From positions 3,350,001 through 3,414,000 of the forward strand of contig CM097885.1 of NCBI GenBank assembly GCA_044892525.1: a stretch of 64,000 nt of DNA, in the 5' to 3' direction. Position 1 is the first letter of the stretch. Each line of letters opens with the position of its first letter. The stretch comes from Schmidtea polychroa (Eukaryota). The notes under the pieces were generated by a model. The model was not told the origin of the DNA. It saw nothing but the letters and a program-made list of their open reading frames with translations, and did not search any database. The position numbers were made by a program, and so were the translations under genes. Below, piece by piece: positions 38,119 through 62,568 of this stretch.

Positions 38119-38556
38119 TTAGAAATCGACCAATGAAATTATCTCATTTCGAACATTGTCAACAAATTCTCTATACTCCAAATTTCTCAACCCCAACATG
38201 ACAACCTTTCCACTAGCAAACACGTTGACACATATAGGGTTATATTTTAATAGTCTTAGTGCCAGAAACAATTCCGGTTCAAACATACAATCATATTTTT
38301 TCGACATGTTATATAGATTGATACTATGTCCCATATCCATAGTAACGGTAATTGATTGGATTATAATATTATTTATTCGATATTGTAATTTATTAATATC
38401 CAAAGGTTTCTTACATCCCATGATTCTGCATTTACCAGTCTTGAAAAATATTATCGGATATTTCCCGCTTCTATCGATAATTTGCTGGGGTTTCCCTGGT
38501 GGGAACCTCATATTCGATACATCAAAATTTCCTCGATAATTTATATTTGCTAACAT
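38119..38556 (-). CDS. TATA-binding-protein-like, element A copy
   Basis: IFFKTGKCRIMG and FEPELFLAL..VFASGKVVMLG; the conserved Pro is Leu in this copy. Confidence 0.85.
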   Translation of the reverse strand: MLANINYRGNFDVSNMRFPPGKPQQIIDRSGKYPIIFFKTGKCRIMGCKKPLDINKLQYRINNIIIQSITVTMDMGHSINLYNMSKKYDCMFEPELFLALRLLKYNPICVNVFASGKVVMLGLRNLEYREFVDNVRNEIISLVDF

Positions 38557-41247: not shown

Positions 41248-41291
<44 letters not shown>

Positions 41292-41333: not shown

Positions 41334-41374
<41 letters not shown>

Positions 41375-41531
41375 TAAATAATAAAAATAATAATAATAAT
41401 AATAATAATAATGATAATAATAAAAATAATATTAATAATATAAATAATAATAATAATAATAATAGAAAAAAAATAATAAAAAAAAAATAATGATAATAAT
41501 AAAAAAAAATAATAATGATAATAATAATAAT

Positions 41532-42665: not shown

Positions 42666-44554
42666 TGAACGGATGCAGTTTATATAAATATTGTATTGCC
42701 GAAAGTCATGAAGATGTTGAGAACTGTAAATCAGTTACATCATCATATTTCAAGATAAATGACTCTAGCTTATTGGGTTACATATGTCCGAAATGTCTCA
42801 TTATAACACCAGGTAGGTGGTTAATGTTTGTACGACAACACGGACACCATCTTAGAAGATTCGAAGAAACGAAGAGCAGTATGATCACTAAAAGTAATAC
42901 TCTTTCTACAATTAACAATTATTAATTTTTTTTTATAGTACAATCGAAAATGAATACATCATACGATCCTAAGCCGATTAAAGAATATGTTACAAGTTAT
43001 GTTATTTAAGTTGTTTAATATTAATTATAAATATAGTTAGACAAAACTCTGGCACCACAAAACGAAAGTCAATATTTTACGGAAATGGAGACTCTAACAT
43101 ACAATTGTGTCCACGTCGGGAGTCTGACTTAAATGGTTCTCGAGTTGAATTGACAAGCGATGTATCTGCAATTAATTCTCCTGACATTGTTGTTCCAGAT
43201 TGTCTCATCAAAGAAATAGAAGATCATATTCAACGAATGGGGACAGTAAAAATCCAATTTGGACTTTGTGCAGAGTTTATCAAAGAGGATGGTGAAATTA
43301 AAAAATGGTGTTTGTCAAATAAAGCAATTACAATGTCATCTTCATTTATTAATGATGGAATTGAAAAATTAAAAGAAAAGTTGGAGAAATACACTCAACA
43401 AAGTAGTGGGTGGAGAATTCATAAAATATTAGAAGTTACTATGATTTTAACTAAATTATCAGACATAATACATGTATCTGGTAAGATTATTTACATTATT
43501 ATATATATAAATCAAGAGATTACTTAGGTTCAAGTTACATTAAAACGCCAAATTACCTGAAAAACTGTCTGGCTTTAGTTAATGTACACAACAATGATCA
43601 ATTCTGCTTTTTATATAGCACACTGGCTGTATTACATTATGATGACATAAAACACCACAGAGAAAGAGTAATGAAATATAATTTAAGTGGTAATATATAT
43701 TTATATTTATATATTTATATTTATACATATATTATTTTATTTAGAGTTAAAATGGAAATCAGATTGGTTTCCAATGAAGTTGGTTAACATTTGCCAATTT
43801 GAGGCAATGAATCCAAATCTAGCGATCAATGTTCTCAAATATAATAAGGATCCAATTAAACAGAATAGTGAAAATATTTTCAAGAATCCGTTCGTTGACT
43901 TGGTATATAGAAGTACTTCGACGGGATCTCAGATATATCTCCTATTGATTGAGGAAGGTAATATTTCTTTTAATCATTAAAAATATTAACTAAATTTTAG
44001 AATTAAATTATCATTATTTGGCTGTAACCAATCTCGATCGACTGCTCAATTACAGAGATAGAGTAGAAGGAGTCAGAATCCAATCACATTGGTGTCATAC
44101 GTGTCTTCACGGATTTCGAAAACGTCCTGCTTTTGAAAGACATATAGGTCTTTGTAGGAAGAATGTGGAGCGGACGACTCTATACTCAATGCCAGAGAAT
44201 AAATATATCGAATTTAAAGACTGGAGTAAAACTATAAAACAGCAGTTTGTTGTGTACGCGGACTTTGAATCAATATTACCTCTAGACGACAAACACTTCC
44301 AAAAACATGAGCCGATTGCATGTGAATTTGTGCTTCTTCATCAAGGTTGTCCGATTCGAAATGAAACATTTGTTGGGAAAAATTGTATCATTCAGTTTAT
44401 ACAAGCATTGGATGATATAGCTAAAGACATAGTTTATCCGTGGTATAAAATTAATGGATCGAATGAAATGATGGAACTCACTTGGGAACAGCAGGAAGAA
44501 TTTACGAATCAAACTCATTGCTACCTTTGTAAAAAGATTATCAATATACCTGTT
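42666..44554 (+). pseudogene. Element B protein-primed DNA polymerase, 5' part; introns 43481-43527, 43690-43744, 43958-44000 and probably two more upstream
   Basis: Spliced product is colinear with C pPolB (GSSYIKTP, NVHNNDQFCF, PMKL.NI..FE, HYLAV, VYADFE); start codon not resolved. Confidence 0.88.
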
Positions 44555-45801
<1,247 letters not shown>

Positions 45802-46363
45802 TTGATGTACTACTATTTGCAGCAATATTGTTTGAAATTGGTAACGTTGAATTGATTTTCAGAGATTCTATTGATCCTTTGATTGTTTGAATTTCTCTTA
45901 ATAATAATTCAATCTTTTTTAACAAATAATCATGCTTCTTATCAATAATTTTCATATTCTTTTTATTTTCAGCAATGGAGTTATTGAAAACTTTAATATG
46001 ATGAATCAATTCAAATTTAATATTTTGTATATATTCAAATGATAGTTCATAACTGTTTTCTAAATTCTCCAATCTTTGAGATATTCTTTTTCCTGGATGC
46101 TTTGACCATTTTGGTTTGTCGAGAATATATAAAATATCCATCAACTTGGCTGTATTCGGACAAACACATATTGATTTATTAAAAGACTCCACTGTTATTG
46201 TTGTATTGTGTGAGCACACACTCGTTATAATAATTAGCAATATGAATATAGTTTTCATGGTGTATCAAATCAAAACCTTTCTTTTACATTTATAGCCTAT
46301 AAACCAATCAAAATCCTCCGGTATTAGTATAAATAAAACATCATATTTTAAATTATTGTAAAA

Positions 46364-46884
46364 ATGTCTCAATTTATGGAAAATCTTTTAAGAGAACTCG
46401 TCAACAGGAATATTATGGAAAGCATATGTTTCCTGGTCGATCGAACCGAAAAGGTCATAGAAGGTAATCACATTGATTATGAAGATGTGATCAATTCCGA
46501 TTGTCTGGAAACCAAAAAATTCTATTTTAATAGAATTTTTAACTGTCTATGCGACGATCAGATGAAGTGGACCCGAATACTAGTAGGGTTCGCTTATATG
46601 AAAATAATTATCGAAAGAAGTCTATGGGACTCAGAGCACTATTATCAGTGGTCTCAAGAAGTAATACTTTTATAATTTATATTTTATTAATATTTATTTT
46701 TTAGATAATCAAGTCAAAGTTCCAACCATGGATTGAAGCCAATGGCGGATGGGGCGTATTCAATCAACTCGCTAGAAATGCGAAGGAAATTGATGAGCAG
46801 AAAAGAAAATTTAAAAACTATGTAAAACTTGCAACAGGTGTTGCTATTTTGTATATTTTATCAAGATTTTTAAATAAAAATTAA
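46364..46884 (+). CDS. Bcl-2 family protein, 158 aa; exons 46364-46660 and 46705-46884
   Basis: BH1-like DDQMKWTRILVGFAY, BH2 PWIEANGGWGVF, tail anchor LATGVAILYILSRF; phase-0 GT-AG intron. Confidence 0.87.
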
Positions 46885-46955
46885 TATAGTTATTTTTGTT
46901 TGATTTTTAAATAAAATTTTAAATAAATTTACAAACACTAATTAACTAAGATTTA

Positions 46956-47329
46956 TTAATTAACACATTCGCAGTCGTCATCTCCACATTTCATTATATT
47001 TTCAACGACATGATCAATACAATCATTCGTAATATTATCTTTAGGTTCCTCTATAGGTTCCTCTATAGGTTCCTCTATAGGTTCATAGATTTCCTCATCA
47101 ATTTCTTGAGTATCGGTTTCTTGAGTTTCTTCCTCATCATCAAATCCTGTATCTTGACTCTCAACTATCCAGCCGATATTTAAGGCATTTGTAATAGATA
47201 ATATGTCCTCAATTTTCACACCAGATATTTCTGCTAACTTTTCCAACAAAAAGTTGATTAAAAATTCTAAATAATAAATAATTCGGTAATTAATTAATCA
47301 TGTTAACCTTTTTCTGCAGTCATTTTCAT
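46956..47329 (-). CDS. Small acidic protein with EEPI repeats; intron 47267-47307
   Basis: Splicing gives MKMTAEKEFLINFLLEKL..., 110 aa. Confidence 0.72.
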
Positions 47330-47455
47330 CACTTTAAAACTATATTATAATTTTGTTTATATATTTTCTTTGTTAAATTTGCATGTCATTTGCATTTATG
47401 TTGCAATTAATAAAGAGAAAAACAAATCTGACTAATACATTTATTAAATATAACA

Positions 47456-47866
47456 TTAAAATATTTGTGAAAGTCTAGCAGACATAATTTTCCAAATAGG
47501 AGAATATACATCATTATTATCAACTTTATATCCCTGGATTGCTATAGTTATATACCAATTTTCATTTTCTTTGAAACTGATTTCATCAAAAGCATCATAA
47601 AATCTTGCATATCTATTGTTGAACCATGCATGTTGATTACACGATAGATTCGAATCTATCCGTTTAAAAACATCATCAATAGTTTTGACATCAATCATTG
47701 AAAGCGTGCCGGATAAGAATTCGAATTTAGTCGGAATTAGCTTGACTGGTGCAACCAATTTCATATTGATTTCTTCTTTCAAAAAATACATTTTGTAGTT
47801 GTGGAACATTTGAACTGGTTGTACCATTTCTTTAGGTTTTTCGGTGCTTGAAATTTTCTTGGTCAT
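47456..47866 (-). CDS. Hypothetical 136-aa protein, possibly an OB-fold ssDNA-binding protein
   Basis: Conserved in A; beta-rich aromatic C-terminus; fold assignment speculative. Confidence 0.7.
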   Translation of the reverse strand: MTKKISSTEKPKEMVQPVQMFHNYKMYFLKEEINMKLVAPVKLIPTKFEFLSGTLSMIDVKTIDDVFKRIDSNLSCNQHAWFNNRYARFYDAFDEISFKENENWYITIAIQGYKVDNNDVYSPIWKIMSARLSQIF

Positions 47867-48019
47867 CGTGAATAATGAATAAATTTAAATGTTACAGGGT
47901 TTTTATACCTTTGAGTCATGTCTATCAACCAATCAGATGATAGCATGTCTTTGTTTAAAATTGCAGGTCATTTGCATTAATGCTGCATTTATGTTCTATT
48001 AATGTTTTATTATTATTAC

Positions 48020-48070
<51 letters not shown>

Positions 48071-48145
48071 TTCTATTATTATTACTATTTATATTATTAC
48101 TATTTTAAATATAAAGAAAAAACACAATTCAAACACGAAATACAT

Positions 48146-48563
48146 TTATTCGTAACCCAAATCAACAATCCGGGAGTAGTGAAACCTTCTCAGAGTTTTC
48201 ACTAACTCCCATTCGACATATCGCCGATATCGATCGGCACAACATGAGCATCCGATGATGCACTGGTACTCTGGCTCCATTTGTTTGATGGTTCTGTTGA
48301 TCTTAATATCCCACAGGAACTGGTGAAATACCTCCATTATTCTAATTTGAGTAGCGTAGAAAATGAGGTCCGGAATTATTTCTGCTTCTCGATCCTTGAT
48401 AATTTCAATAATTTGAGGATAATAATATTTCATCCTATCGATCATAACTTTTAAATATTTTTCTAAAATAATAAATAGTAAATAATGTGAAAATAAAAAT
48501 TTTAAATTTACCGGAATCGTCAATATCCTTCATGAGGGTTGCAGAGCTTGGTAATTTGTACAT
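48146..48563 (-). CDS. Hypothetical 122-aa protein with CIIGCSCC; intron 48463-48511
   Basis: Removing the 49-nt GT-AG intron restores colinearity with 37630-38046. Confidence 0.75.
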
Positions 48564-48636
48564 GATGTTGAAAAAATGAATTCTAAACAAAAACCGTTTG
48601 TTTAAATCAATCAATAACCAATAAGAAACTAACCAA

Positions 48637-49074
48637 TTAGAAATCAACCAATGAAATTATCTCATTTCGAACATTGTCAACAAATTCTCTATACTCCAAA
48701 TTTCTCAACCCTAGCATGACAACCTTTCCACTAGCAAACACGTTGACACATATAGGGTTATATTTTAATAGTCTTAGTGCCGGAAACAATTCCGGTTCAA
48801 ACATACAATCACATTTTTTCGACATGTTATATAGATTGATAGTATATCCTATATCCATAGTAACGGTAATTGATTGGATTATAATATTTTTTATTCGATA
48901 TTGTAATTTATTAATATCCAAAGGTTTCTTACATCCCATGATTCGACACTTACCAGTCTTGAAAAATATTATCGGATATTTCCCGCTTCTATCGATAATT
49001 TGCTGGGGTTTCCCTGGTGGGAACCTCATATTCGATACATCAAAATTTCCTCGATAATTTATATTAGCTAACAT
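48637..49074 (-). CDS. Minimal TATA-binding-protein-like factor, 145 aa
   Basis: Two TBP half-repeats: LANINY..IFFKTGKCRIMGCK and IQSIT..INL..FEPELFPAL..VFASGKVVMLG. Confidence 0.88.
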   Translation of the reverse strand: MLANINYRGNFDVSNMRFPPGKPQQIIDRSGKYPIIFFKTGKCRIMGCKKPLDINKLQYRIKNIIIQSITVTMDIGYTINLYNMSKKCDCMFEPELFPALRLLKYNPICVNVFASGKVVMLGLRNLEYREFVDNVRNEIISLVDF

Positions 49075-49172
49075 TATTAAATCATTTATGAAAATTAGTC
49101 TTTATATACACATTGAGCACGAGTTCATTAAATCATCGAATATAAACAAATACACATATATAAAATTTTGAA

Positions 49173-49799
49173 ATGGAATTAAGAAATGATGCAGTATACC
49201 AAATCGTTGGTCCGAGTGGTAGTGGAAAAACATTATTTGTTTGTAAATTACTAAAATCAAATTTATTCAAATCAAAATTCAACAGGATTTATTGGCATAG
49301 GGGTGCTGATGAAGAACATGGATTAACTCAATCAAGTTTCTGTAAATTAAAAAACATGAAAATAGTAAAGGGATTCGATAAAAACTGGTCCAGCCGATTA
49401 AAGAAAGGTGATGTCATTATTATCGATGATTTGTATCAAGAAGCTAATAAAGAAAAAGATTTTAATAATTTATTTACAAAGATCAGCAGACATGTCGGTG
49501 TAACAGTTATTTTCATAACACAAAATCTATTTCATCAAGGTGGGGCACATCGAACACGTAATTTAAATGTACAATATTTAGTTATTTTCAAGAATCCTAG
49601 AGATGCAACAGTGATTGATTTTCTTGCACGTCAAGCATACCCTAATAATCGTAATTTTCTTATCAGTGCATTTCAAGATGCTACAAAAATACCTCATGGA
49701 TATATATTTCTTGATTTCACACAACAATGTCCCGATGATTTACGTGTAAAAACAGATATTTTCAACCCAAAAGGTGCCATGGTTTATAAACAAAGTTGA
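49173..49799 (+). CDS. A32-like packaging ATPase
   Basis: Walker A GPSGSGKT, Walker B IIIDD, SRH and ITQN motifs. Confidence 0.95.
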   Translation: MELRNDAVYQIVGPSGSGKTLFVCKLLKSNLFKSKFNRIYWHRGADEEHGLTQSSFCKLKNMKIVKGFDKNWSSRLKKGDVIIIDDLYQEANKEKDFNNLFTKISRHVGVTVIFITQNLFHQGGAHRTRNLNVQYLVIFKNPRDATVIDFLARQAYPNNRNFLISAFQDATKIPHGYIFLDFTQQCPDDLRVKTDIFNPKGAMVYKQS

Positions 49800-49817
49800 A
49801 AACCTCTATGAATAATA

Positions 49818-50345
49818 ATGTTTCTAAAAGCAAGGGTGAAAAATATTAGGAAATTAAGAAAAGGTATTAGAAAGACTATTAAAGTTCCAAAAGTTCCACC
49901 AACAACTAGTTATACACCGTCTAAAAAACTTGTAACTGAAAATTTCTCTGCAATGAATCTTATTTCGAAAAATCCAAAACCTAAGCGTAAAACCCGTAAA
50001 ACCCGTAAAACCGGTAAAAAAGTAGTTAAAAATCATCGCAGTTTTCCATTTTTTAATGCATTGTTAAAGGCCCCGAGTATGAAAAGAATGAATATATTGC
50101 AATCATTCCCAAATTTTGTTGTCGATGATTTACTCAATATTATACTTAAAGTAGTCAAAGGCAAAATTAAAATCAGTAAATCAAAAAAGCATTTATTGAG
50201 CAAACATCGGAAACCGTTGTTATCTTTAGTAAATAATAAAAATCGTAAGCAAATGAGGAAAATTATATATAAACAACAAGGTGGATTTATTGGTGCATTG
50301 ATACCTCTGGCATTATCATTATTAGGTGGAGTTACACAAACATAA
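49818..50345 (+). CDS. Basic virion core protein with a putative adenain cleavage site
   Basis: K/R-rich; QQGG followed by hydrophobic FIGALIPLALSLLGG. Confidence 0.72.
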   Translation: MFLKARVKNIRKLRKGIRKTIKVPKVPPTTSYTPSKKLVTENFSAMNLISKNPKPKRKTRKTRKTGKKVVKNHRSFPFFNALLKAPSMKRMNILQSFPNFVVDDLLNIILKVVKGKIKISKSKKHLLSKHRKPLLSLVNNKNRKQMRKIIYKQQGGFIGALIPLALSLLGGVTQT

Positions 50346-50406
50346 ACAATGGGTGCTAATCCTTCATTACCCGACATTAAATTTTATTTTAAATCTTCTT
50401 GTTGTA

Positions 50407-50794
50407 ATGGAGAAGATTTGGACGAACCCAGAAGACGAGGCCGGTTTCGGTGGAGTGGCAAAATTAAAGAGAAGAGTTCCGAATTCGAAAAAAGAAACCC
50501 AGAAGTGGTTATCAGATCAGCTTGCGTACAGTTTGAACAAACCAATGCGGAAAAGATTTCCAACAAGAGCGTATAAAACATTTGGTATTGACGATTTATG
50601 GCAAATGGATTTGATGGAGATGATACCTTATTCGAAAATTAACAATGGGAATAAATATATTTTAACATGTATTAATGTATACAGCAGGTTTGCACGAGCA
50701 ATACCGGTCAAGGCAAAATCTGCAGAAGAAATGTCCAAGGCAATTAATATTTTATTTAAAGATGGACATCCTAATAACTTGCAAACAGATTTAG

Positions 50795-50862
<68 letters not shown>

Positions 50863-50876
50863 ATTATTATTATTAA

Positions 50877-50919
<43 letters not shown>

Positions 50920-51549
50920 TTAGGTAAAGAATTCTACAATAGCAAAGTTAAGCAAATCCTCGATAAACTGAAAATAAATCATTACTCGGTACATTCTCAA
51001 TACAAAGCTGCCCATGTTGAAAGATTTAATCGAACATTGAGAGATAGATTAAAGAAATTGTTCGTGCATCAAGGTAATAAAAAATGGGTAAATGCTTTAC
51101 CCAAAATAATAACAAGTTATAATCATTCATCACATCGAGGACTGAATGGATTGAGACCGGTTGATATTACATCAAAAACATCATTATCTAAAAAATCTGT
51201 AAAAATTACAAAACCTAAATATAAAGTCGGTGATCATGTTAGAATTAGTAAAATTAGTGCATCACCATTTATTAAAAATTTTGATACAAATTGGAGTGAT
51301 GAAGTCTTTGTAATTTCAAAAATAAATACTAAACAGAATCCTGTAATGTATGTCATCAAAGACAATGATAATAATATTGTACAGGGGAAATTTTATGAGC
51401 AGGAATTACAAGTCATTCCTCCCCCAAAAGTATTTAGAATTCAAAAAATATTGAAAACTAAAAAGGTCGGTAAGGATAAACAATACTATATCAAATGGCA
51501 CGGTTATCAAAACCCGTCATGGATATCGTCAAAAGACCTAGTAAAATGA
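50407..51549 (+). CDS. Retroviral-like DDE integrase with C-terminal chromodomain; intron 50795-50923
   Basis: WQMDL, QTDLG|KEFYN after splicing, VERFNRTL, YKVGDHVRI; chromodomain IQKILK..YYIKWHGY..SW. Confidence 0.95.
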
Positions 51550-52550
51550 ATTTTTATATTATTTTACCTAGCAATAGCTGTCCACTTATTCATCCAGATA
51601 ATAAAGCCAGCAAATTCAGGGTCAATCTTCAAAATCCGATATATTTGGATAATAGCTGGGAAGTTGCTCTGTTGGATTTTACATTTGTATACCAAGCCTT
51701 TCCATTTTATAGTAAGGCTAAAATTGGATACAAAAAGAATGAGTGGCAGGATAGATTATTGTCTATGATCATTGATAATGCAGATGATGAAGTTCGGTTG
51801 TCTAATTCAACTGATCCAGCTGTGAAAATGTATATTAACCATCCATATATAGTAGTTGAATGTAAAAATTATCCTTTTACTGTAAAATTTGATAGTTTGG
51901 AAATGGCAAAACGATTGGAATTAAAAACCCAAAGTCATAAAGTTCTTTCCGATAAATTCACTGTGCTACGACCGGGATATTCTAAAACTGTACAGCGATT
52001 TGAACCAATTTTATTTACAGTTTCATATCCGGGTATAACGTCTGGTACATTTGAGTTCAAAGATAATTTATACATTTCGAAATTGGATGAATTACAGACA
52101 TATTTAAAACAAAGTGGTTTATTTAAATCATTGGAAATATCAGACAGATTCAAATTCAGTTTGAATCCCGAATTTACGGAAATTACTTTTGATGCAAATC
52201 TAATAAAAACATTAGGATTATCAAAAGCAACATATGCTCAAGATGATCAAGGTACCCTAGCTCCGAAAATAATTAAACTTCACCAACAAATGTTCATCTA
52301 TAGTAATATTGTTGATCCTGTAATTGTTGGCGATTCTTTGGTCCCACTCCTGAAATCTGTTTGGATTGAAAAATATGAACATGATGAAGTAGTCAATATA
52401 AATATCGATAATCCCATGTATTTACCTGTGTCAACCTCATGTATAAACAATATAGAAATAAATATACGTGATGATTCTGGTAAATTAATCGCATTTCCAA
52501 AAGATTCAAAAACTCATTTAACATTACATTTTCGTAAAGTAGATGGCTAA
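51546..52550 (+). CDS. Minor capsid (penton-like) protein
   Basis: FYIILPSNS..N..S.F.V.L..PI.L..WEVAL start; IYSNIV.P.IVGDS..PLL and YLPV end; ATGA overlap with integrase. Confidence 0.88.
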   Translation: MNFYIILPSNSCPLIHPDNKASKFRVNLQNPIYLDNSWEVALLDFTFVYQAFPFYSKAKIGYKKNEWQDRLLSMIIDNADDEVRLSNSTDPAVKMYINHPYIVVECKNYPFTVKFDSLEMAKRLELKTQSHKVLSDKFTVLRPGYSKTVQRFEPILFTVSYPGITSGTFEFKDNLYISKLDELQTYLKQSGLFKSLEISDRFKFSLNPEFTEITFDANLIKTLGLSKATYAQDDQGTLAPKIIKLHQQMFIYSNIVDPVIVGDSLVPLLKSVWIEKYEHDEVVNINIDNPMYLPVSTSCINNIEINIRDDSGKLIAFPKDSKTHLTLHFRKVDG

Positions 52551-52911
52551 TTCGGATATTATTAGTATGTATAGTGGTAGCCAATCTGGCGGTGAATTAC
52601 CATATTTTATTGGTAAACAGTACGGATCAGGATGGTTGAGAACAATTGGTAGATTTGCACTTCCTATTCTTAAACGTATTGGTAGTTTTGGTATGAAAAC
52701 TGCTAAAGATGTTATTATGAATGAACAGAAAATATTACCATCTCTAAAATCAAATGCTTTAGCAGAATTAGGGAAAGTTTTACCCGGGGTTGCAGGTATG
52801 TTTCAAAAAGAAAAACCTCCAGCTCCAGCTCATGCTCCAAAACGTAAAAGACATGGAATATCACGTATAAACAAACGAATGAAAGGCCATGGAACTATAT
52901 TTGCAAAATGA
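52543..52911 (+). CDS. Small virion core/membrane-lytic-like protein
   Basis: QSGG, QYGSGW and amphipathic LRTIGRFALPILKRIG; lies directly upstream of the major capsid gene. Confidence 0.72.
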   Translation: MANSDIISMYSGSQSGGELPYFIGKQYGSGWLRTIGRFALPILKRIGSFGMKTAKDVIMNEQKILPSLKSNALAELGKVLPGVAGMFQKEKPPAPAHAPKRKRHGISRINKRMKGHGTIFAK

Positions 52912-54131
52912 TTTGTGGTAAATCTGAATTATGTATATTTGATAGACCGTCGCCCCAGGCTGTAATAGAATTTGGGGCGTTTGAGGAAGTTTTTCCAATG
53001 AATTCAATTACCGATAGTAGAAATGATATAGAGTTTTATATTAATGGTTCGCAAACTGAATATTTAGATTTGAACGATACTTTATTGACTGTTCAGATTA
53101 AGGTTGTAGATAAAGATAAAAAAGCTTTGGGTGATGCTGCTGATGCAATACCGAACAATTTCATGTTTCATACTCTTTTTAAAGATGCTGTGTTGGGATT
53201 TAATAATATCAAGATTGAAGGTGGTAATAATACATTCATTCACAAGGCTTTGATAGAAACTATTTTAAATTACAATTCCGATACTAAAAATACATGTCTT
53301 ACTCCAATGGGATATGCTGCAACCGACGATGAAAGAAAAAAGTGGATTAAAGGCTCAAAAACATTCACCATGTGTTCATCGTTACAACTCGATTTTATGG
53401 ATCAACCGAAATATTTGCTTCCAGGAGTTAATGTCCACATTCGATTGAAAAGATCCGATTCTGCACTAACTCTTACTAGTGCTACAGGTGCACCAATATG
53501 TCAATTAGTTGATGCAAAATTATTGGTGAGAAGAGTTCGAGTAGACCCCTCAGTATTAGCTGGTCATCAATTGGGTCTTAATTCAAAACATGCAATTTAT
53601 CCATTAAAAACAAAGGAAATTGTACAATTTGCTATTGCTAAAGGTGCTTCATCATTCTATAAAGAACAAATATTTGGTGACAGAAGAATGCCTAATTTTA
53701 TTCTGATAACATTTCAAAGTGAAGCACAATATAATGGATCATATACTGCGTCCAGCTCAATTTTCAAAAACTTTGGTGTTACATCATTGACTTTGTCGAA
53801 AAATACTGATTATAGAGAAACATATATTCAAGATTTCGAGAATGATAATTACTGTGCGACATATATGCAGAGTATTGTTAGAAATCTGGGTTATTTAGAT
53901 AAAAATTTGAATTGCGGAATAACTCTAGAAGATTTTAAAAGCAAATACCCATTTTTTACATTTGTTTTAGCCCCTGATTTTGATTTAAATCAAAGTCAAT
54001 TACCTCAAAATGGAAATTTACGACTGGATATAAAGTTTGCAAAAGCTATTACTGAACCAGTACATGTTATAATATATGGAGTATTTGAAAATGAAGTTCA
54101 AATTACTGCAAATAGAACTGTGTTGGTATAA
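52908..54131 (+). CDS. Major capsid protein
   Basis: KSELCIF start, YLDLNDT, HTLF, HKALIETILNY, QPKYLLPGV, GNLRLDIKF; 407 aa. Confidence 0.92.
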   Translation: MICGKSELCIFDRPSPQAVIEFGAFEEVFPMNSITDSRNDIEFYINGSQTEYLDLNDTLLTVQIKVVDKDKKALGDAADAIPNNFMFHTLFKDAVLGFNNIKIEGGNNTFIHKALIETILNYNSDTKNTCLTPMGYAATDDERKKWIKGSKTFTMCSSLQLDFMDQPKYLLPGVNVHIRLKRSDSALTLTSATGAPICQLVDAKLLVRRVRVDPSVLAGHQLGLNSKHAIYPLKTKEIVQFAIAKGASSFYKEQIFGDRRMPNFILITFQSEAQYNGSYTASSSIFKNFGVTSLTLSKNTDYRETYIQDFENDNYCATYMQSIVRNLGYLDKNLNCGITLEDFKSKYPFFTFVLAPDFDLNQSQLPQNGNLRLDIKFAKAITEPVHVIIYGVFENEVQITANRTVLV

Positions 54132-54158
54132 ATGTATATTGAAACATAAAAAGTTGTC

Positions 54159-54543
54159 ATGGAGTAAGTTGTTTTTTATACTCTGGATTTATTTAAGTAG
54201 TTCTGTTCAGGTCAATAAAATCGGAAAACAGATATTGGGAAATGAATTTGTTGGAGTTTTTCCTCTTGATAAAATTCCATATTTGAGCAATAATCAAGCA
54301 ATAATCGTCAATACTCATTCGTCACATCTTGGTGGAGAACATTGGATAGCTATATATATGAAACCTGGCAATATATTCGTGTTCGATCCTATGGGTTTTT
54401 ATTACCCGGCTTTGTTGATATCAAAACTACAAACAATGGGGAAACCTATTGTGTATAATAAAACTATGTTTCAAAATCCTTTGACCCAAACATGTGGTCA
54501 ACATTGTTTAGCTTGGTTATTGTACAAAAAATTTGATGTTTAA
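54159..54543 (+). CDS. Adenain-like maturation protease; probable intron 54164-54200
   Basis: GEHWIA, FDPMG, Q..TCGQHC catalytic motifs; ATGGA|GTAAGT..TAG| gives MDSVQVN. Confidence 0.9.
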
Positions 54544-54572
54544 TAAATGTATCCTTTCCTTTGTTGTTGTGA

Positions 54573-54625
<53 letters not shown>

Positions 54626-54959
54626 GTGAAAAATATTATTATTTTTAATTAATTTTATTATTATTCAAATAAATATTATTATTTGTAACATAAAGACTAC
54701 CTATGCCTGAAGCATGCACAGTGCAAGTTAACAAAGGCATGACTAACAAAGGCAGTCACATGTAATTTCTGAGTGATTTTCATTACATGCATGCATGCGT
54801 GTGATTGGTTGAGAGATGAAAATTCTAAGTTACTATGCGTGTGTGTCTAATTCTGATTGGGTGGGACATGAAATTTTTCATTCTCTTTATAAACATTGAC
54901 AAATCTAAAATTTGTCACAATTATTTTAAAATTTTCAAAAATTTTCAAAAATTTTCAAA

Positions 54960-55636
54960 ATGGACAAAAATAATATTTTAAGAAGCATGATGGCTTGCGA
55001 TAATGGTATATTATTTATTTTTATTTTATTTATTTTTATATATTTATTTTGTAGATGATTTATGGTACCAGGTGACCGAAAACGAGAATGGATTTAATTT
55101 GAATTGCACCTATGGTAATTTTATTTTTATTTATTTATTATTATTATTATTTAGATGTTATAATGTTGAGTGATGAAGAAGACGAAATAATAATTATTAG
55201 CGATGAAGAAGAAGAGGAATCACCAATTATTAATGATCACGACTTATCAAGTAAATTATTATTATTATTATTATTTAAAAAAAAAAAAAAACTGTTTTAG
55301 GAAATAGTCAAAGAGAAAATTCCCCCAATTTTGTTGGAGAAACAGAAAATTTAATAGGTGCCATCATTGAAGACACACGTAAATTTTTATTATTATATGT
55401 AATTTTTAAAAATTGATTTAGAAAGTTCAATTATTTTGGAGGACATATATGATCCTATCATGGATGATCTATATGCTCCCATTAATGTGGATGACAAGGA
55501 AATTGCTCCAGAGACAAGATTATTTAATACCCCTATTCGGGATGCTTCCATTCATGAGGTTTTTGATGCCCCCACTTTAACCGGTGATGACCTCTCTGAG
55601 GATGACACAGATTCAGATTCTGAATCTAAATGTTAG
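54960..55636 (+). CDS. Multi-exon (about 5) acidic protein with tandem SIM-like motifs
   Basis: NILRSMMACDN|DDLWYQVTE, VIMLSDEED, IIIISDEEEE, end ESKC*; upstream CCAAT and TATA-like boxes. Confidence 0.7.
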
Positions 55637-55729
55637 TTTTTTTTTTATTTATTTTATAAATATTTATTTTAATAAATTCTTAAATTAAAAATAACATTCT
55701 GTAGAATATTTAAATTATTTTAAACATAA

Positions 55730-55965
55730 ATTTTATGAAAAATGTTGAGATTTATATGAAACATGATGAAAATTATATGAAACATGATGATAAAAATGCT
55801 GAAAATTATATGAAACATGATGAAATTTATATGAAAAATGCTGCAATTTATATGAAACATGATGAAAATTATATGAAAAATGCTGAAATTTATATTAAAC
55901 ACGATGAAATTTATATGAAAAATGCCGAAATTTATATGAAACATGATGAAAATTATATGAAATTA
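55730..55965 (+). repeat. About 21-bp tandem repeat (GATGAAAATTATATGAAACAT-like)
   Basis: Units visible directly. Confidence 0.85.
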
Positions 55966-56011
55966 ATGATTCTAACTAATCTAGAGAATGTTATTTTTAT
56001 TTAAGTTTAGA

Positions 56012-56391
<380 letters not shown>

Positions 56392-56407
56392 TAATAATAA
56401 TAATAAC

Positions 56408-56443
<36 letters not shown>

Positions 56444-56563
56444 TGATATAACATAGGAATGTTATCAGTTATTCTATTTTATAATTATTCGATTATAAAA
56501 TAGATTAACTAATAACAATTAGTTATTATAGAATTATATATATACAATTTTTAAATAACTTTA

Positions 56564-57061
56564 TTGTTAATAGGTAGATTATACCCTCAATACTGTATGT
56601 CCTCACTTGGCCATTCAAATAAATGTCATAAGGATATGAAAAAATACTATGGCCATAAATTCTATGGCGTCAAGTACTATTTATGTCCCATATGCGAAAC
56701 TTGTCAGGACATAAAATATAAATCCTTTTTTAAGATACATAAAAGACATTTAAATCAATTTAGAATTAGTAAAAAACAGCTTTTTAGTATATTAAAAAGC
56801 AAACCAATACGAACAGTAGATAAAGCGCGACCTATACATAAGAAAACACAAAATAATAAAGCGCGACCTACACATAAGAAAACACAACATAATAATCCAT
56901 CCTTTGTTCCAAATTCGTCTGTGTTAAATTCACCTTCTATAAATAAACAAACTGCGATAAATTCAACGGTAATAAATCCTTCTGTGATAAGTTCTTCTGT
57001 GTTAAATTCAACTGTGATAAGTTCATCGGTAATAAATCCTTCTGTGATAAGTTCTTTTGTA

Positions 57062-57112
<51 letters not shown>

Positions 57113-60100
57113 CGGCCTGCTGTTAGTATTGGGTCTGGTGTTCCCTCAAAAATTACTAAAATTAATGATAACCCCATGTTTTATCAAGTAGGTGGTTCGG
57201 TCGATCTTGATGATGAACCAGAAATTGAAATCGATTTTAAGGGGGCACGAAAAAATTTAAGATTTGACGTTGAAAAGGATAATTTGGTTGAAATTTCCCT
57301 CACAAATAAGATTGTTGATAAATTAATTTCCGAAATGAAAGGAATGGGCACAGTCAAAATTCAGTTCACCATCCTCATCCAGTTTGAGAAAGATGGGGAA
57401 ATTAGAGATAATTTCTTCTCTAATAGCGCTGAAGTTTTTTCAGACACTTTTTTAATTAACGGTATTACAAAATTAAATAATAAAATAGAACGATTTACAT
57501 ATTTAGGGAGCGGATGGCGGGTAGTTAAAATTAAAGAGATTGATTTTATATTAAATAAATTTACAAATATAAATAGGTTAGCTGGCCATAGTTACATCCC
57601 CACACCTTCGGCTTTAAAAGCTAAGAAAGCAATATTAAACGTCAAAAACAACGACGATATGTGCTTTATATATAGTATATTAGCACTTTTAAAACGTGAC
57701 GAAGTACGCATGAATAACACCCGTGCTAGTACTTACCAAAAATATTTAGGTGAACTGAATTTTGACCCTATAGATGATTGCCCAATGAAATTATGCAATA
57801 TTCCTAAATTCGAGAGGAAAAATAAAGAATTAAATTTAGCAATAAATGTATTGACATATAGGAAAAGTCCAGCTAAGCCTATAGAACATCTAGATATAAA
57901 TTATGTACCCCATCATCCTCAATTAGACATCATTCACCGATCTAAGGTTATAGATGGTGAACCCCTATATTTATTGCTATTGGAAGACGGTGCTACTTTC
58001 CATTACACCGCAGTTTTTAATCTTAAAAAATTAATGAATTGCCACCCTAGTAATTCATGTAATATCCAAATTTGCGTAAACTGGTGCCCCCATTGCCTTA
58101 ATGGTTTCAGACACAGGAGTGCTTTTGACCTTCATGTAGACCTATGCCGTAAGAATCAGATAGGTACTACTTTATATACGCTCCCTAAAGAGAAAAATTT
58201 AATTTATAAAGATTATTCAAAAACAATAACCCCGCCATTCGTAATATATGCCGATTTTGAGGCAATTTTACCCGAAGATATTACCCACCATCAAAAACAC
58301 TTGCCAATAACAGCAGGCCTATTACTAATAAATAATTACACAAAAACAAAATTTTATTACGAGTTTGTTGGTGAAGATTGTGTGCTGTCTTTCTTACGTA
58401 AGGTGGAGGAAATTGCTGTCACAATTGTCCTGCCATATTACGATATTAATGGCCGAAGGCCTATGCAAACCTTGTCTTTCGCTGAAGATCGTGCTTTCTT
58501 TGATTCCAGGACCTGTTATCTCTGTAAAAAATTCATTCGTAGTAGAGTTAGGGATCATTGTCACTTCACAGGTAAGTATCTTGGTGCTGCCTGTAGGAAA
58601 TGTAATGTGTCTCGCAGAATTCAGAGACAGTTACCTGTTGTGTTCCACAATTTGAGGGGGTATGACCTCCATCATATTTTGAAGTATGGTTTAAATAATT
58701 TTCCTTCTTGGGAATTAAATATTATTCCAACCACTACGGAAAAATTTATCTCCCTCATCGCGTACATTAACAAATTGCCTGTTCGTTTTATTGACAGCAT
58801 GCAGTTTGTTAATTCATCACTTGCAAAAGCGGTTAAGACTCTTTCAGATCTGCCTTTAACTTCTTCTGTTTTTGATGGCGCAATTGTTCGCTCAAAAGGT
58901 ATCTTTCCTTATGACTTTGCTACATCTCTTGAGGTTCTGGAATCAACTCTTGAATTACCTCCTATTTGGGAATCGGTGTCTAATGATGAATATGAATTAG
59001 CCCAAGTTATTTGGACTCAACAAAATTGCAACAACATGTTAGATTACATGTTGACTTACCTTAAACTAGACGTATTTCTCCTTGCAGATTATTTTCAGCA
59101 ATTCCGTGAAAAGGCCATTGCATACAATGGTCTTGAACCTCTAAATTTCTATGGCATTCCCGGTATGTCATGGGCCTCAGCGCTTATGACATTAACGGAA
59201 CCCATAGAACTTTTACAGGACATGGAAATCTTTAATTTCTACGAAGGAGGAATACGGGGTGGGTTAACATTTGTTAACAAACATTATGTTGCAAGTTCTG
59301 AAGACACTGAACTCCTGTACATAGATATCAATAATTTGTATGGTTGGGCCTTAAGCCAAAATCTGCCTTATGCTGACTTTGTATGGGTGTATGATAATTT
59401 GGATTCTGTACTTTATGAATGTATGAATTCGGATATTGATAACCTTCCATATGGGTATACTATGGAAGTTGATATCGAAATTCCGGAATGTTTGCATGAT
59501 TTTTTAAATGACTTTCCTATTGCTCCGGAAAAGATGTGTCCACCGAACTCCAAAGTTGAGAAGTTGATGCTCACGCATTGGCCAAAGAAGAACCATGTTC
59601 TTCATTGGAGACTTCTTAAACTTTATCTTTCACTCGGTGTGAAGGTTGTTAAAATTTATCGAGCAGTTAAATTCACGCAAGCACCTATATTTAAACAATA
59701 TATTGACAAGAACACCACATTGAGAGCACAGTCAACCAGTGAGTTATATAGAGACTTGTTTAAGTTGTACAATAATAGCTTATACGGGAAATCCGTCGAG
59801 AATCTTAAAAAGCGGATGAATTTGAGACTATGCAATTCAGCTGAAAAGATGATTGTATATGCCTCAAAGCCGACTTTCAAGAAATCACTCAAAATTGATG
59901 ATGACTTGATTGCTGCACATCTGAAAAAGGATTCTATCTGTTTAGACAGACCTAGTTACATCGGTCAAACAGTTCTAGATCTGTCTAAACTGCGGATGTA
60001 CCAGCTCCAATATAATGAACTGGCGAAATATAGGATAGAATTTAATTGTGAGATAAATATCGTTGCCGGCGACACCGACTCCTTTTTCCTAGAGATAAAG

Positions 60101-60706
60101 AACTGTAAACTTCACACTCTTTTACCGGCAATGATAAGAGACAACCTTTTAGATACGTCGAATTACGATCCTGCTCATCCGTTGTACTCAAAGAGTTTGG
60201 ATTCGGTAATAGGAAAGTTTAAAGACGAGAGTAAAGGGCTGGGTTATCGCGAGTGGGTTTTCTTGCGCCCTAAGTGTTACAGTTTGTTAGGAGATAAGGA
60301 GACACTTAGGGCTAAAGGAGTTAAGTTAGACAAAACAGAGATAGGGCACCAGTCTTATTTAGACTGTTACAATAATAGTATAATATATTCAGTGCCACAA
60401 ACGAGGATAGGTACAAGAAACCACCAGCTCTTTACTTTTAAGAATAGGAAAATAGCCTTGTCGAACAACGATGACAAGAGGCTATGGGTGGGTCCTAATA
60501 CAAGTCTCGCATATGGGCATTATTTAGGAGTTGACAAAACTGATGATGATGGCCATGTATTTGACGGAGATGAACATGAAAATGGATATGTGGAGATAGG
60601 CCCACTTTTTGGAGGAATGAGCCCCAGTTTCGATGAGGGCGACGACTCAGATTCGAATACTGATATATGTGACACAGACATTGACGATATAATTTTGTCG
60701 GATTAA
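56564..60706 (+). CDS. Protein-primed family B DNA polymerase; true start uncertain
   Basis: Exonuclease YADFE, FHNLRGYD, YLKLDV; polymerase YIDINNLY, KLYNNSLYGK, GDTDS, KCY, KGV; Cys/His insert RDHCHFTG. Confidence 0.97.
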
Positions 60707-60965
60707 TATATCTTTTAAAACAATTTTGTGTTGATTTACAAATTTTTATTGAAAATTTTTATTGAAAACTGGTTATAGTTTTCGTTCTATGCTTAATCAT
60801 TATATTTTCATGTAAAATTAATAAATTCACAATGATTAAGCATAGAAATTGTTTTTGTAAAAGTAGTTTTTTATATAAATGTTAATAGTAGTTTGCAGTC
60901 AGCACGCAACTACTTCTCTATTTTTATTGGAAATTTTTATTGAAAACTAGTTGTTGAGCGTGACC

Positions 60966-62568
<1,603 letters not shown>

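What the first reader, a model, noticed from the sequence alone, without database searches (positions are those of the whole stretch)
48637..49074. Polinton-encoded minimal TATA-binding protein
Seen: a 145-aa intronless ORF with both TBP half-repeat signatures (FKTGKCRIMG; FEPELFPAL..VFASGKVVMLG), no N-terminal extension and a shortened first repeat. It is head-to-head with the ATPase/structural block across about 100 bp, and the A copy differs at 6 residues. Known: TBP-like factors drive late transcription in some large DNA viruses, and TBP is not a core Polinton gene. Inference: a viral late-gene factor or a decoy of host TBP.
Basis: partly seen in the sequence, partly recalled or inferred. 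Interest (0 to 1): 0.88.

Follow-up and report, generated by a model that had tools for sequence, protein, structure and literature searches.

The report
Miniature TATA-binding protein of a Polinton
A virus-like jumping element in an animal genome carries its own stripped-down copy of the TATA-binding protein that starts gene transcription, and this small gene is kept in a whole lineage of such elements, so it is probably the element's own transcription switch.

Summary
ORF 48637-49074 (-) is a 145-aa TBP-family protein (Pfam PF00352, E 2.6e-14). Its AlphaFold2 model (pLDDT 96.6) matches only TBP saddles. Repeat 2 is complete. Repeat 1 keeps its strands but lacks both helices.

It lies in a complete 18-kb Polinton (44555-62568) with TIRs, AG..CT ends and a 6-bp TSD (CCTGTT). 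It sits head-to-head with the A32-type packaging ATPase, 98 bp away.

It is not a recent host capture and not a neutral relic:
- Relatives of about 145-175 aa fill 111 clusters at E<=1e-10.
- In metagenome contigs they lie beside homologues of this element's ATPase, integrase, protease and other genes.
- On a tree they separate (support 100) from canonical TBPs, including six host loci.
- Copy A against copy B gives dN/dS 0.20.
- The genome holds at least 150 intact copies.

Three of the four DNA-kinking Phe and the EPEL stirrup motif are kept. A motif, (T)ATAAACA(A), lies 12-50 nt upstream of ATPase and other element genes across the lineage (23 of 65 against 6.5% for controls).

Best reading: an element-encoded basal transcription factor. 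Function and expression are not tested. The only prior mention found is a figure label (Starrett 2021). Verdict: a new variant of a known kind.

The parts
48637..49074 (-). Miniature TBP-like gene (145 aa), copy B
   Evidence: ORF. Pfam TBP E 2.6e-14. HHalign to canonical TBPs: prob 99.6, E 7.3e-24. AF2 pLDDT 96.6. Foldseek: all 44 hits at E<=1e-3 are TBPs.
38119..38556 (-). Same gene in the truncated sister copy A (139 of 145 identical)
   Evidence: 7 synonymous and 6 non-synonymous differences from B.
49075..49172 (.). 98-bp divergent intergenic region. It holds TATATAAAG on the minus strand (49108-49100, -34 of the TBP ATG) and TATAAACAAA on the plus strand (49141-49150, -32 of the ATPase ATG).
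   Evidence: The plus-strand motif is kept at the same place in three other lineages of this genome.
49173..49799 (+). A32-type genome-packaging ATPase
   Evidence: Pfam Pox_A32 30.3 bits against cut-off 22.8. 72-75% identical homologues beside TBP-like genes in L006, L011 and L016.
44555..62568 (.). Complete Polinton/Maverick element B (18,014 bp): termini AG..CT, 6-bp target-site duplication CCTGTT at 44549-44554 and 62569-62574
   Evidence: Local alignment of the two ends. Inverted repeats at 99%.
44555..45806 (.). Left terminal inverted repeat (holds 212/234-bp tandem units)
61044..62568 (.). Right terminal inverted repeat
47456..47866 (-). orf136, a frequent neighbour of the TBP-like gene in relatives; candidate gp2.5-like OB-fold ssDNA-binding protein
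   Evidence: Neighbour in L006, L008-L011 and L013. AF2 pLDDT 89.3. VIA top four are viral SSBs at Z 6.7-7.0, which is middling.
48146..48445 (-). orf99, unknown, downstream of the TBP-like gene on the same strand. AATAAA at 48150-48145 overlaps its stop codon.
   Evidence: No Pfam match.
49818..50345 (+). orf175, basic protein of unknown family, with TATAAACAAA at -33
   Evidence: Homologues in L006, L011 and L016.
50407..51549 (+). Integrase (rve core plus chromodomain-like end). The frame holds a long in-frame poly-Ile run.
   Evidence: Pfam rve 25.8 bits, below the cut-off of 32.6; Chromo 18.9; rve_3 16.2. 57% identical homologue in L016.
51495..52550 (+). orf351, conserved element gene of unknown family, with ATAAACA at -19
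52908..54131 (+). orf407, putative major capsid protein, with TATAAACAAA at -42
   Evidence: Conserved at 28-59% in L014, L016, L018 and L025. Only a weak colinear BLASTP match to the DJR capsid ORF 25777-27048 (E 0.067), so the name is tentative.
54076..54543 (+). Adenain-like cysteine protease
   Evidence: Pfam Peptidase_C5 27 bits against cut-off 21.3.
56597..60706 (+). Protein-primed family B DNA polymerase (1369 aa)
   Evidence: 33% identical over 1111 aa to the 1405-aa ORF of L025, which also matches the Pfam DNA_pol_B_2 fragment 62908-63609. A DTDS motif is visible in the translation.

Best explanation
The ORF encodes a Polinton-borne, reduced paralogue of TATA-binding protein that most likely works as the element's own basal transcription initiation factor.

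Shown here:
- It has the TBP saddle fold.
- Repeat 2 is complete (S1'-H1'-S2'-S5'-H2').
- Repeat 1 keeps its strands but has lost both helices.
- It belongs to a large, old family that travels with Polinton genes and is under purifying selection.

Inferred:
- The concave sheet binds a TATA-like box about 30 nt upstream of element genes. In the alignment the sheet keeps three of the four DNA-kinking Phe (F38, F97, F113). The family-invariant residues N6, R44, M46 and N111 and the near-invariant S68 lie where canonical TBP has its base-contacting Asn, Val, Thr or Leu.
- The best candidate site is the lineage-conserved (T)ATAAACA(A) in front of the ATPase and of orf175, orf351 and the putative capsid gene orf407.
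- The retained C-terminal stirrup (E93-P94-E95-L96-F97) recruits a TFIIB-family factor and hence host RNA polymerase II.
- Without the repeat-1 helices the protein would lack the surface that several host TBP partners are recalled to use. It could then act outside TFIID control.
- The gene's own promoter carries an ordinary TATATAAAG box at -34. Host TBP could therefore switch it on first.
For: Family and fold:
- Pfam TBP E 2.6e-14.
- HHalign against 12 canonical TBPs gives prob 99.6 and E 7.3e-24. It is colinear over residues 15-144, with a 13-residue gap where H2 of repeat 1 lies.
- AF2 gives pLDDT 96.6 and pTM 0.86, with no helix before residue 53.
- All 44 Foldseek PDB hits at E<=1e-3 are TBPs, with TMq 0.67-0.79. 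The next hit has E 0.12.
- BFVD hits are giant-virus TBP-likes, an asfarvirus B263R homologue and, weakly, herpesvirus BcRF1/U58.

Conservation:
- 108 of 113 candidates match at E<=1e-3, nearly all full length at 37-95% identity.
- There are 723 representative clusters at E<=1e-3 and 111 at E<=1e-10.
- F97 and F113 are invariant, and F38, E93 and E95 nearly invariant, in 128 sequences.

Context:
- In 13 of 17 related contigs the gene lies beside homologues of other genes of this element. These include the ATPase, integrase, protease, orf351, orf407 and the polymerase.

Not host-derived recently:
- Host TBP loci score only 14-26 bits against it, while other Polinton lineages in the same genome score 175-205 bits.
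- In a 78-row tree, 54 Polinton-type rows separate from 24 canonical rows on a branch with SH-aLRT 100.

Selection:
- A against B: 7 synonymous and 6 non-synonymous changes, dN/dS 0.20, binomial p 0.007.
- B against L126: 7 synonymous and 1 non-synonymous.

Promoter evidence:
- 7 of 12 element genes have TATAWA at -47..-32 of the ATG, against about 5% background. The window was chosen after looking.
- TATAAACAAA occurs 7 times in the window, always inside copies A or B. Shuffles give a mean of 1.7 and a maximum of 5.
- All 10 ATAAACA sites in element B point the same way as the local genes.
- Over 13 loci, 23 of 65 ATAAACA sites lie -50..-12 of an ORF start. The 41 permuted 7-mers give 97 of 1481 (Fisher p 6e-11).
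- The motif keeps its place before the ATPase in 7 of 7 loci of three other lineages in this genome.
Against: - No DNA binding, partner binding or expression was shown. No sequencing run holding the stretch is on record as RNA.
- The complex predictor was not available.
- The first Phe of repeat 1 aligns to an invariant Pro. The central Asn/Thr positions are replaced by S68, M46 and L121. Classical TATA recognition is therefore not assured.
- The genome is AT-rich, so TATA-like words are common. The -47..-32 window was chosen post hoc.
- TATAAACAAA is itself a good TATA box that host TBP could use.
- ATAAACA also fits the forkhead consensus RYAAAYA (recalled). The motif may be a host factor site.
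- The gene's position and orientation relative to the ATPase vary among relatives.
- The roles given to the EPEL stirrup and to the repeat-1 helices are recalled from the TBP literature and were not tested here.
Confidence: 0.6

Rival explanations
1. Decoy or dominant-negative TBP. The protein occupies host TATA boxes, or titrates TFIIB, without building a productive complex. This would damp host (or rival element) transcription rather than drive element genes.
For: It lacks the repeat-1 helices and the first Phe of repeat 1. It keeps the EPEL stirrup. It is small enough to reach the nucleus without a signal (inference). Its own promoter is an ordinary TATA box.
Against: A decoy does not explain the lineage-conserved motif at a fixed distance before the ATPase and other element genes. 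It also does not explain the invariant polar residues placed on the DNA-facing strands. With at least 150 intact copies per genome, a general shut-off factor would be costly to the host if expressed.
Confidence: 0.15
2. A TBP-fold DNA-binding protein used outside transcription. For example, it could mark the AT-rich termini or an origin for protein-primed replication, or hand DNA to the adjacent packaging ATPase.
For: It lies next to the packaging ATPase in many relatives. It shares the minus-strand block with a candidate ssDNA-binding protein. The concave surface is remodelled.
Against: The residues kept most strictly are the TBP transcription signatures: the Phe pair of repeat 2 and EPELFP. 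No match to the terminal repeats was sought or found. In L014, L017, L018 and L022 the gene is not beside the ATPase.
Confidence: 0.15
3. The upstream motif is read by a host forkhead-type factor or by host TBP, and the mini-TBP has an unrelated or redundant role. This rivals the promoter part of the model only.
For: ATAAACA fits RYAAAYA (recalled). TATAAA is a canonical TATA box.
Against: The motif sits at a core-promoter-like distance, co-oriented with the genes, in contigs as far apart as 27-40% protein identity. The one Polinton fragment in the window without a TBP-like gene (25777-32664) has none of its five ATAAACA sites within 50 nt upstream of any of its 8 ORFs. That is a single, possibly partial element.
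Confidence: 0.25
4. A recently captured host TBP fragment decaying neutrally.
For: The host has several TBP paralogues, some without introns.
Against: Host loci score 14-26 bits against 175-205 bits for other Polinton lineages. The tree separates them with support 100. dN/dS is 0.20 or lower. The family has 111 clusters at E<=1e-10.
Confidence: 0.02

Closest known systems
Cellular TATA-binding protein core (Pfam PF00352; eukaryotic TBP/TRF and archaeal TBP)
   Same: Saddle fold of two tandem repeats. The Phe pair and EPELFP stirrup of repeat 2, the SGK turns of both repeats and the second Phe of repeat 1 are kept.
   Different: 145 aa against roughly 180 for the core. Repeat 1 has no H1 or H2. 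The first Phe of repeat 1 is an invariant Pro. The central Asn/Thr positions are replaced. It forms a separate clade from 24 canonical sequences, including six host loci.
TBP-like proteins of giant viruses and asfarviruses (for example the Heterosigma akashiwo virus 01 putative TBP and B263R homologues)
   Same: Virus-encoded TBP fold; Foldseek E 4e-8 to 3e-4.
   Different: These targets are 186-600 aa with 7-20% identity. Their viruses are recalled to carry their own RNA polymerase, which this element does not encode. Three viral-contig TBPs (182-186 aa) group with canonical TBPs, not with this family.
Herpesvirus late-gene TBP mimics (BcRF1 / U58 family)
   Same: From recall: a viral TBP-fold protein that reads a variant TATA box on late promoters and brings in host Pol II. 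This is the closest analogy for how the mini-TBP may work.
   Different: The fold match is only weak (E 0.008-0.03, TMq 0.40-0.50). These are large proteins with no detectable sequence relation. Their promoter specificity is recalled and was not tested here.
'TBP' gene label on a MELD virus or element map in Starrett et al. 2021 (PMC8502044, Fig. 5 legend; preprint 10.1101/697771)
   Same: A TBP homologue noted in a midsize polinton-like virus or element with an adintovirus-like PolB (passages read).
   Different: It is only a legend entry ('similar to TATA binding proteins', 'homologs of host proteins'). The figure is not held, so I cannot tell which element it is or whether it is this family. 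The sections I read contain no analysis of size, fold, distribution or promoters.

Membership tests
TBP family (PF00352) | Profile match above the curated cut-off | tested here: met
   53.2 bits against 22.9, E 2.6e-14. Copy A scores 50.3 bits.
TBP family (PF00352) | Two tandem repeats forming a saddle | tested here: met
   The AF2 model (pLDDT 96.6) aligns over the whole TBP core, TMq 0.67-0.79. HHalign is colinear across both repeats. Repeat 1 is reduced to strands only.
TBP family (PF00352) | Helices H1 and H2 on the convex side of each repeat | tested here: not met
   They are present in repeat 2 (H81-85, H129-142) and absent in repeat 1. There is a 13-residue gap at H2.
TBP family (PF00352) | Four Phe that kink the TATA box (positions recalled from TBP-DNA structures) | tested here: inconclusive
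   By alignment, three of four are kept (F38, F97, F113). The first one in repeat 1 aligns to the invariant P23.
TBP family (PF00352) | Acidic C-terminal stirrup that binds TFIIB (role recalled) | tested here: met
   The motif E93-P94-E95-L96-F97 is present; E93 and E95 are at least 90% conserved in 128 sequences.
TBP family (PF00352) | Sequence-specific binding to TATA DNA | not testable with these tools
   Needs EMSA or SELEX.
Polinton / Maverick element | Long terminal inverted repeats, AG..CT ends (recalled as typical) and a 6-bp target-site duplication | tested here: met
   Ends at 44555 and 62568; TSD CCTGTT on both sides. TIR arms are 98-100% complementary.
Polinton / Maverick element | Protein-primed family B DNA polymerase | tested here: met
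   The 1369-aa ORF is 33% identical over 1111 aa to the L025 ORF, which also matches a Pfam DNA_pol_B_2 fragment. A DTDS motif is present. Pfam itself gives no direct hit on this ORF.
Polinton / Maverick element | Retrovirus-like (rve) integrase | tested here: inconclusive
   rve scores 25.8 bits, below the cut-off of 32.6 (E 1.3e-5), with weak rve_3 and Chromo matches. The ORF is interrupted in frame by a poly-Ile run.
Polinton / Maverick element | A32/FtsK-type packaging ATPase and adenain-like protease | tested here: met
   Pox_A32 30.3 bits against 22.8. Peptidase_C5 27 bits against 21.3.
Polinton / Maverick element | Double jelly-roll major capsid protein | tested here: inconclusive
   orf407 has no Pfam hit and only E 0.067 against the window's DJR ORF. 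No structure was predicted for it.

The most novel reading that the evidence does not exclude
A whole lineage of animal-genome and environmental Polintons carries the smallest natural TBP saddle known to me. It is a 145-aa form that shed both helices of repeat 1 in steps (relatives of 160-176 aa keep longer spacers). It no longer answers to the host regulators of TBP. It redirects host RNA polymerase II to its own promoter class, (T)ATAAACA(A), in front of the ATPase and other element genes. That would be a polymerase-less virus running an early/late switch with a private basal factor.
Probability: 0.3. Interest if true: 0.8.

Novelty: new variant of a known kind. Interest (0 to 1): 0.64.

Why it matters
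How Polintons/Mavericks time and control their genes is unknown. These elements have no RNA polymerase of their own. A private TBP, together with a conserved promoter word, gives a testable handle on that control: one small protein and one 98-bp DNA. For TBP biology, the family is a natural deletion experiment. It shows that the saddle is predicted to fold without the convex helices of one repeat. It also marks which residues stay fixed when the links to TFIID-type regulators are presumably gone. The family is large (111 clusters at E<=1e-10). In the papers I could search it appears only as a figure label.

Tried and rejected
- Expression: no RNA holder is listed. Contigs of three runs guessed to be RNA (X1, X2, X4) cover the ORF. 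In X4, single contigs end in untemplated A or T runs just past the ATPase stop (after 49843) and 17 nt past an AATAAA behind orf99 (before 48128). Contigs cannot show strand or level, the RNA label is a guess, and I had no second call to lay a silent stretch. I treat this as a weak hint only.
The canonical host TFIIB is split by an intron, so no unaltered single frame was on hand.
- orf136 as a TBP partner: rejected in favour of a gp2.5-like ssDNA-binding fold (Z about 7, middling). The word-index search found only one relative.
- IMG/VR scan: it gave only distant hits at 25-33% identity. The three I translated are ordinary two-repeat TBPs of 182-186 aa. Two are one 566-aa protein with a TBP-like part.
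- Pfam: at E<=5 it found nothing for orf99, orf122, orf175, orf407 or the 75-aa ORF 50349-50576. For orf351 and orf166 it gave only matches below the cut-offs.
- orf407 against the DJR capsid ORF: E 0.067, inconclusive.
- ESM Atlas: the nearest cluster is a 144-aa TBP cluster of 55 members. Its taxon label rests on a single record, so I did not use it.
- Earlier findings of this scan: nothing by place, sequence or words.
- Literature searches: no paper describes a Polinton TBP family. PMC11161782 has no 'TBP', 'TATA' or 'transcription' in its main text. 'TATA' in PMC12220804 is only an author name in the reference list. Supplements were not opened. The library lacks most subscription journals.
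- Rejected readings: recent host capture and a neutral pseudogene.

Full report
OBSERVATION. Pfam's TBP model PF00352 matches at E 2.6e-14 (53.2 bits against a cut-off of 22.9) with two stretches. A phmmer search of PDB sequences returns 35 sequences at E<=10, all of them TBPs or TBP fusions, the best at 6.5e-10. The sister copy at 38119..38556 is 139 of 145 identical and also passes Pfam. The divergent neighbour at 49173..49799 is an A32-type packaging ATPase (Pox_A32 30.3 bits against 22.8). The gap between the two genes is 98 bp.

THE ELEMENT.
- Inverted repeats of 98-100% frame the region.
- Aligning the two ends places the termini at 44555 and 62568. They begin AG and end CT, and the same six bases, CCTGTT, flank both sides. 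This is a complete 18,014-bp insertion with a target-site duplication.
- Besides the ATPase it carries an integrase (rve 25.8 bits, below cut-off, with weak chromo and rve_3 matches).
- It also carries an adenain-like protease (Peptidase_C5 27 bits against 21.3).
- There is a 1369-aa polymerase. It is 33% identical over 1111 aa to a 1405-aa ORF in locus L025, which in turn matches a Pfam DNA_pol_B_2 fragment. It has a DTDS motif.
- orf407 is probably the capsid gene, but I could not confirm this.
- The element sits inside another Polinton's polymerase gene. The flanking ORFs 44189-44578 and 62908-63609 both match the L025 polymerase.
- Copy A (about 35.1-40.4 kb) is a truncated sister.

FOLD.
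- A profile of 128 family members was aligned to a profile of 12 canonical TBPs, two of them host paralogues. The result is probability 99.6 and E 7.3e-24, colinear from residue 15 to 144. The match starts in strand S2 of repeat 1 and has a 13-residue gap where helix H2 of repeat 1 lies.
- AlphaFold2 with that alignment gives pLDDT 96.6 and pTM 0.86. The strands are at 2-10, 25-28, 35-38 and 42-48 with no helix among them. A complete second repeat follows: strand 62-74, helix 81-85, strands 90-92, 99-102, 109-113 and 117-123, and helix 129-142.
- All 44 Foldseek PDB hits at E<=1e-3 are TBPs, spanning the whole saddle at TMq 0.67-0.79. The next hit has E 0.12.
- In the viral library the matches are giant-virus TBP-likes, an asfarvirus B263R homologue and, weakly, herpesvirus BcRF1/U58. 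All are 186 aa or longer.
- So 'minimal TBP with a shortened first repeat' is correct. More precisely, repeat 1 has lost both convex-side helices.

A FAMILY, NOT A ONE-OFF.
- The word-index search found 108 relatives at E<=1e-3 among 113 candidates. Identity is 37-95%, nearly all cover the full length, and all carry PF00352.
- The exhaustive search over representatives found 723 clusters at E<=1e-3, 111 at E<=1e-10 and 5 at E<=1e-30. Most are 144-175 aa.
- The metagenome scan confirmed 404 of 588 candidate stretches and kept 80 loci.
- I took the 17 best loci with some flank and compared their ORFs with those of element B. In 13 of the 17 the TBP-like gene lies beside a homologue of another gene of this element. 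The neighbours seen are orf136, the ATPase, orf175, the integrase, orf351, orf122, orf407, the protease or the polymerase. The other four are contigs of 1.8-3 kb with no detectable neighbour.
- L025 has core genes only 27-39% identical to the window's. It still has the gene next to the ATPase.
- Orientation varies. In L011, L023 and L025 the gene lies directly upstream of the ATPase on the same strand, and in L006 and L016 it lies 1.5 kb upstream. In L014, L017 and L018 it follows the protease.
- Head-to-head is the rule in this genome's lineages. In 5 of 7 loci from three other lineages my script found the divergent ATPase start 103-125 nt away. In the other two (L097, L100) the script's Walker-A word did not match, so they are not counted.

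NOT A HOST GENE.
- The genome is 781 Mb. It looks like an animal's. A proteasome alpha-6-like ORF in the window matches mammalian PSMA6 best, and the best host TBP locus is broken by stops, as exons would be.
- It has at least six TBP-family loci of the canonical type. These score 14-26 bits against the window protein. Three other Polinton-type lineages in the same genome score 175-205 bits.
- I built a quick maximum-likelihood tree of 78 rows, picked by hand:
  - the window protein and 3 proteins from other lineages of this genome;
  - 44 family hits spread over the score range, plus the L025 protein;
  - 5 odd-length hits;
  - 10 canonical hits and 5 canonical metagenome ORFs;
  - 6 host loci, three of them exons only;
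  - 3 viral-contig TBPs.
- In that tree a branch with SH-aLRT 100 separates all 54 Polinton-type rows from all 24 canonical rows. The tree is unrooted, so it does not give the source of the family.

SELECTION AND COPY NUMBER.
- Copies A and B differ by 7 synonymous and 6 non-synonymous changes (dN/dS 0.20). Seven or more synonymous changes out of 13 has binomial p 0.007 under neutrality.
- B against L126 differs by 7 synonymous changes and 1 non-synonymous change.
- Searching the genome with the protein gave 4168 first-look candidates. All 150 that were scored cover residues 1-145 without a stop at 96-100% identity. Ten are identical in protein, counting the window's own.
- The scored set is the best-scoring one, so it does not give the share of intact copies.

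RESIDUES.
- By the profile alignment, F38, F97 and F113 fall on three of the four Phe that in TBP-DNA structures kink the TATA box (positions recalled). The fourth aligns to P23. P23 is invariant in 29 sequences and at least 90% conserved in 128.
- The stirrup of repeat 2 reads E93-P94-E95-L96-F97. E93 and E95 are at least 90% conserved. I recall this as the TFIIB contact.
- The DNA-facing strands carry family-fixed residues that differ from TBP's central Asn, Val, Thr or Leu. N6, R44, M46 and N111 are invariant, and S68 nearly so.
- I read this as a conserved but altered DNA surface. That is inference.
- Relatives in the basal part of the family (160-176 aa) have about 10 more residues between S1 and S5, and 6-11 more before the second stirrup. 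The L025 protein has spacers of canonical length, by my count on its sequence. This suggests stepwise loss of the helices.

PROMOTER-LIKE MOTIFS.
- Seven of the 12 element genes have TATAWA at -47 to -32 of the start codon. The expectation is 4.4-5.2% for random positions, and 5-8% for all ATGs in the element. I chose the window after looking, so the nominal p of about 2e-7 to 7e-7 is too small.
- Three of these sites read TATAAACAAA (ATPase, orf175, orf407). That 10-mer occurs 7 times in the 64-kb window, always inside copies A or B. Shuffles give a mean of 1.7 and a maximum of 5.
- The core ATAAACA occurs 10 times in element B. Nine are on the plus strand in the plus-strand gene block and one is on the minus strand in the minus-strand block. 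Four lie at -31, -32, -19 and -41 of the ATPase, orf175, orf351 and orf407.
- Over element B and 12 related contigs (74.6 kb), 23 of 65 sites lie 12-50 nt upstream of an ORF of at least 70 aa on the same strand. The 41 permutations of the 7-mer give 97 of 1481 (odds ratio 7.8, p 6e-11). The runner-up is the same motif shifted by one base.
- In three other lineages of this genome the intergenic DNA has drifted. The motif still stands at the same place before the ATPase in 7 of 7 loci.
- The TBP gene's own upstream region has an ordinary TATATAAAG at -34. L006 and L008 have a similar box.
- The other Polinton fragment in the window (25777-32664) has no TBP-like frame. None of its five ATAAACA sites lies within 50 nt upstream of any of its 8 ORFs. 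It is a single fragment and may be partial.

MECHANISM. I put the following at about 0.6. The protein is the element's own basal factor. It binds a TATA-type box about 30 nt before the element's genes, perhaps the ACA-extended form, and recruits a TFIIB-family factor through the retained stirrup. It escapes host partners that need the repeat-1 helices. The fold, the family, the context, the selection and the motif enrichment are shown. Everything about binding, partners and timing is inferred. The roles assigned to the stirrup and helices are recalled. The rivals are:
- a decoy of host TBP (0.15);
- a TBP-fold protein used for replication or packaging (0.15);
- for the motif alone, a host forkhead-type factor or host TBP, since ATAAACA fits RYAAAYA (recalled) and TATAAA is a canonical box.

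WHAT IS KNOWN. Virus-encoded TBP-fold factors are established in giant viruses, asfarviruses and beta/gamma-herpesviruses (names seen; functions recalled). For Polinton-like elements I found one trace. The Fig. 5 legend of Starrett et al. [quoted passage not shown] The preprint calls TBP a homologue of a host protein. I read passages and section 3.4; the figure itself is not held. Four other full-text searches found no description of a Polinton TBP family. A search on flatworms and Polintons was listing only. So the kind of thing is known. What appears new is the reduced architecture, the size and Polinton linkage of the family, and the associated motif.

LIMITS.
- No run holding the stretch is on record as RNA.
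- The laid contigs give only a weak hint of polyadenylated transcripts.
- The complex predictor was unavailable.
- The capsid assignment of orf407 is tentative.
- The host lineage is inferred only as 'animal'.
- Taxa of the metagenome relatives are unknown.

Noticed in passing
window 44189-44578 and 62908-63609: Element B is nested inside another Polinton's polymerase gene. The ORFs on either side of the insertion both match the L025 polymerase (30% and 41%). The right one carries Pfam DNA_pol_B_2.
   Followed up: partly
window 47456-47866 (-): orf136 is a frequent neighbour of the TBP-like gene in relatives. Its model (pLDDT 89.3) best matches T7 gp2.5, phage Enc34 SSB, a DUF2815 phage protein and ASFV CP312R at Z 6.7-7.0. 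It is probably the element's ssDNA-binding protein.
   Followed up: partly
window 50407-51549 and 56597-60706: Trinucleotide repeats have expanded in frame inside coding regions. There is a run of about 45 Ile in the integrase core and poly-Asn in the polymerase N-terminal part. This copy's integrase may therefore be impaired.
   Followed up: no
window 50349-50576 (+): A 75-aa ORF starting MGANPS (an N-myristoylation-like start, recalled) overlaps the integrase start. It is conserved in L006 and L016, and ATAAACA lies 7 nt before its ATG.
   Followed up: partly
G000 C3:38.2-39.1 Mb and C1:23.8-24.2 Mb (example L136:2572-3477): Thirteen places hold open frames of 301-310 aa with a TFIIB cyclin match (38-44 bits), lying in clusters; none has a stop inside the match. 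The one I read (L136) is a full TFIIB-like protein with a zinc ribbon. It is unclear whether these belong to another mobile element or relate to the mini-TBP.
   Followed up: partly
window 25777-32664: A different Polinton fragment. It has a double jelly-roll capsid gene (E 1e-24), a phospholipase A2-like domain protein and a second A32-type ATPase. It has no TBP-like frame and no ATAAACA within 50 nt upstream of its ORFs.
   Followed up: partly
G000, loci L086-L095: The host has at least six canonical-type TBP-family loci. One is a canonical TBP whose match is broken by stops, as exons would be. Two are single open frames of 212 and 215 aa that hold both repeats.
   Followed up: partly
window 5145-6700, 33665-35130, 40745-41500: Long arrays of short tandem units (16-nt period; 9-15-nt periods). 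The array at 40.7-41.5 kb abuts the truncated end of copy A.
   Followed up: no
window 48128 and 49843: In run X4, single contigs end in untemplated T or A runs at these places. One lies 17 nt past an AATAAA on the minus strand behind orf99. The other lies about 40 nt past the ATPase stop. These are possible poly(A) sites.
   Followed up: partly
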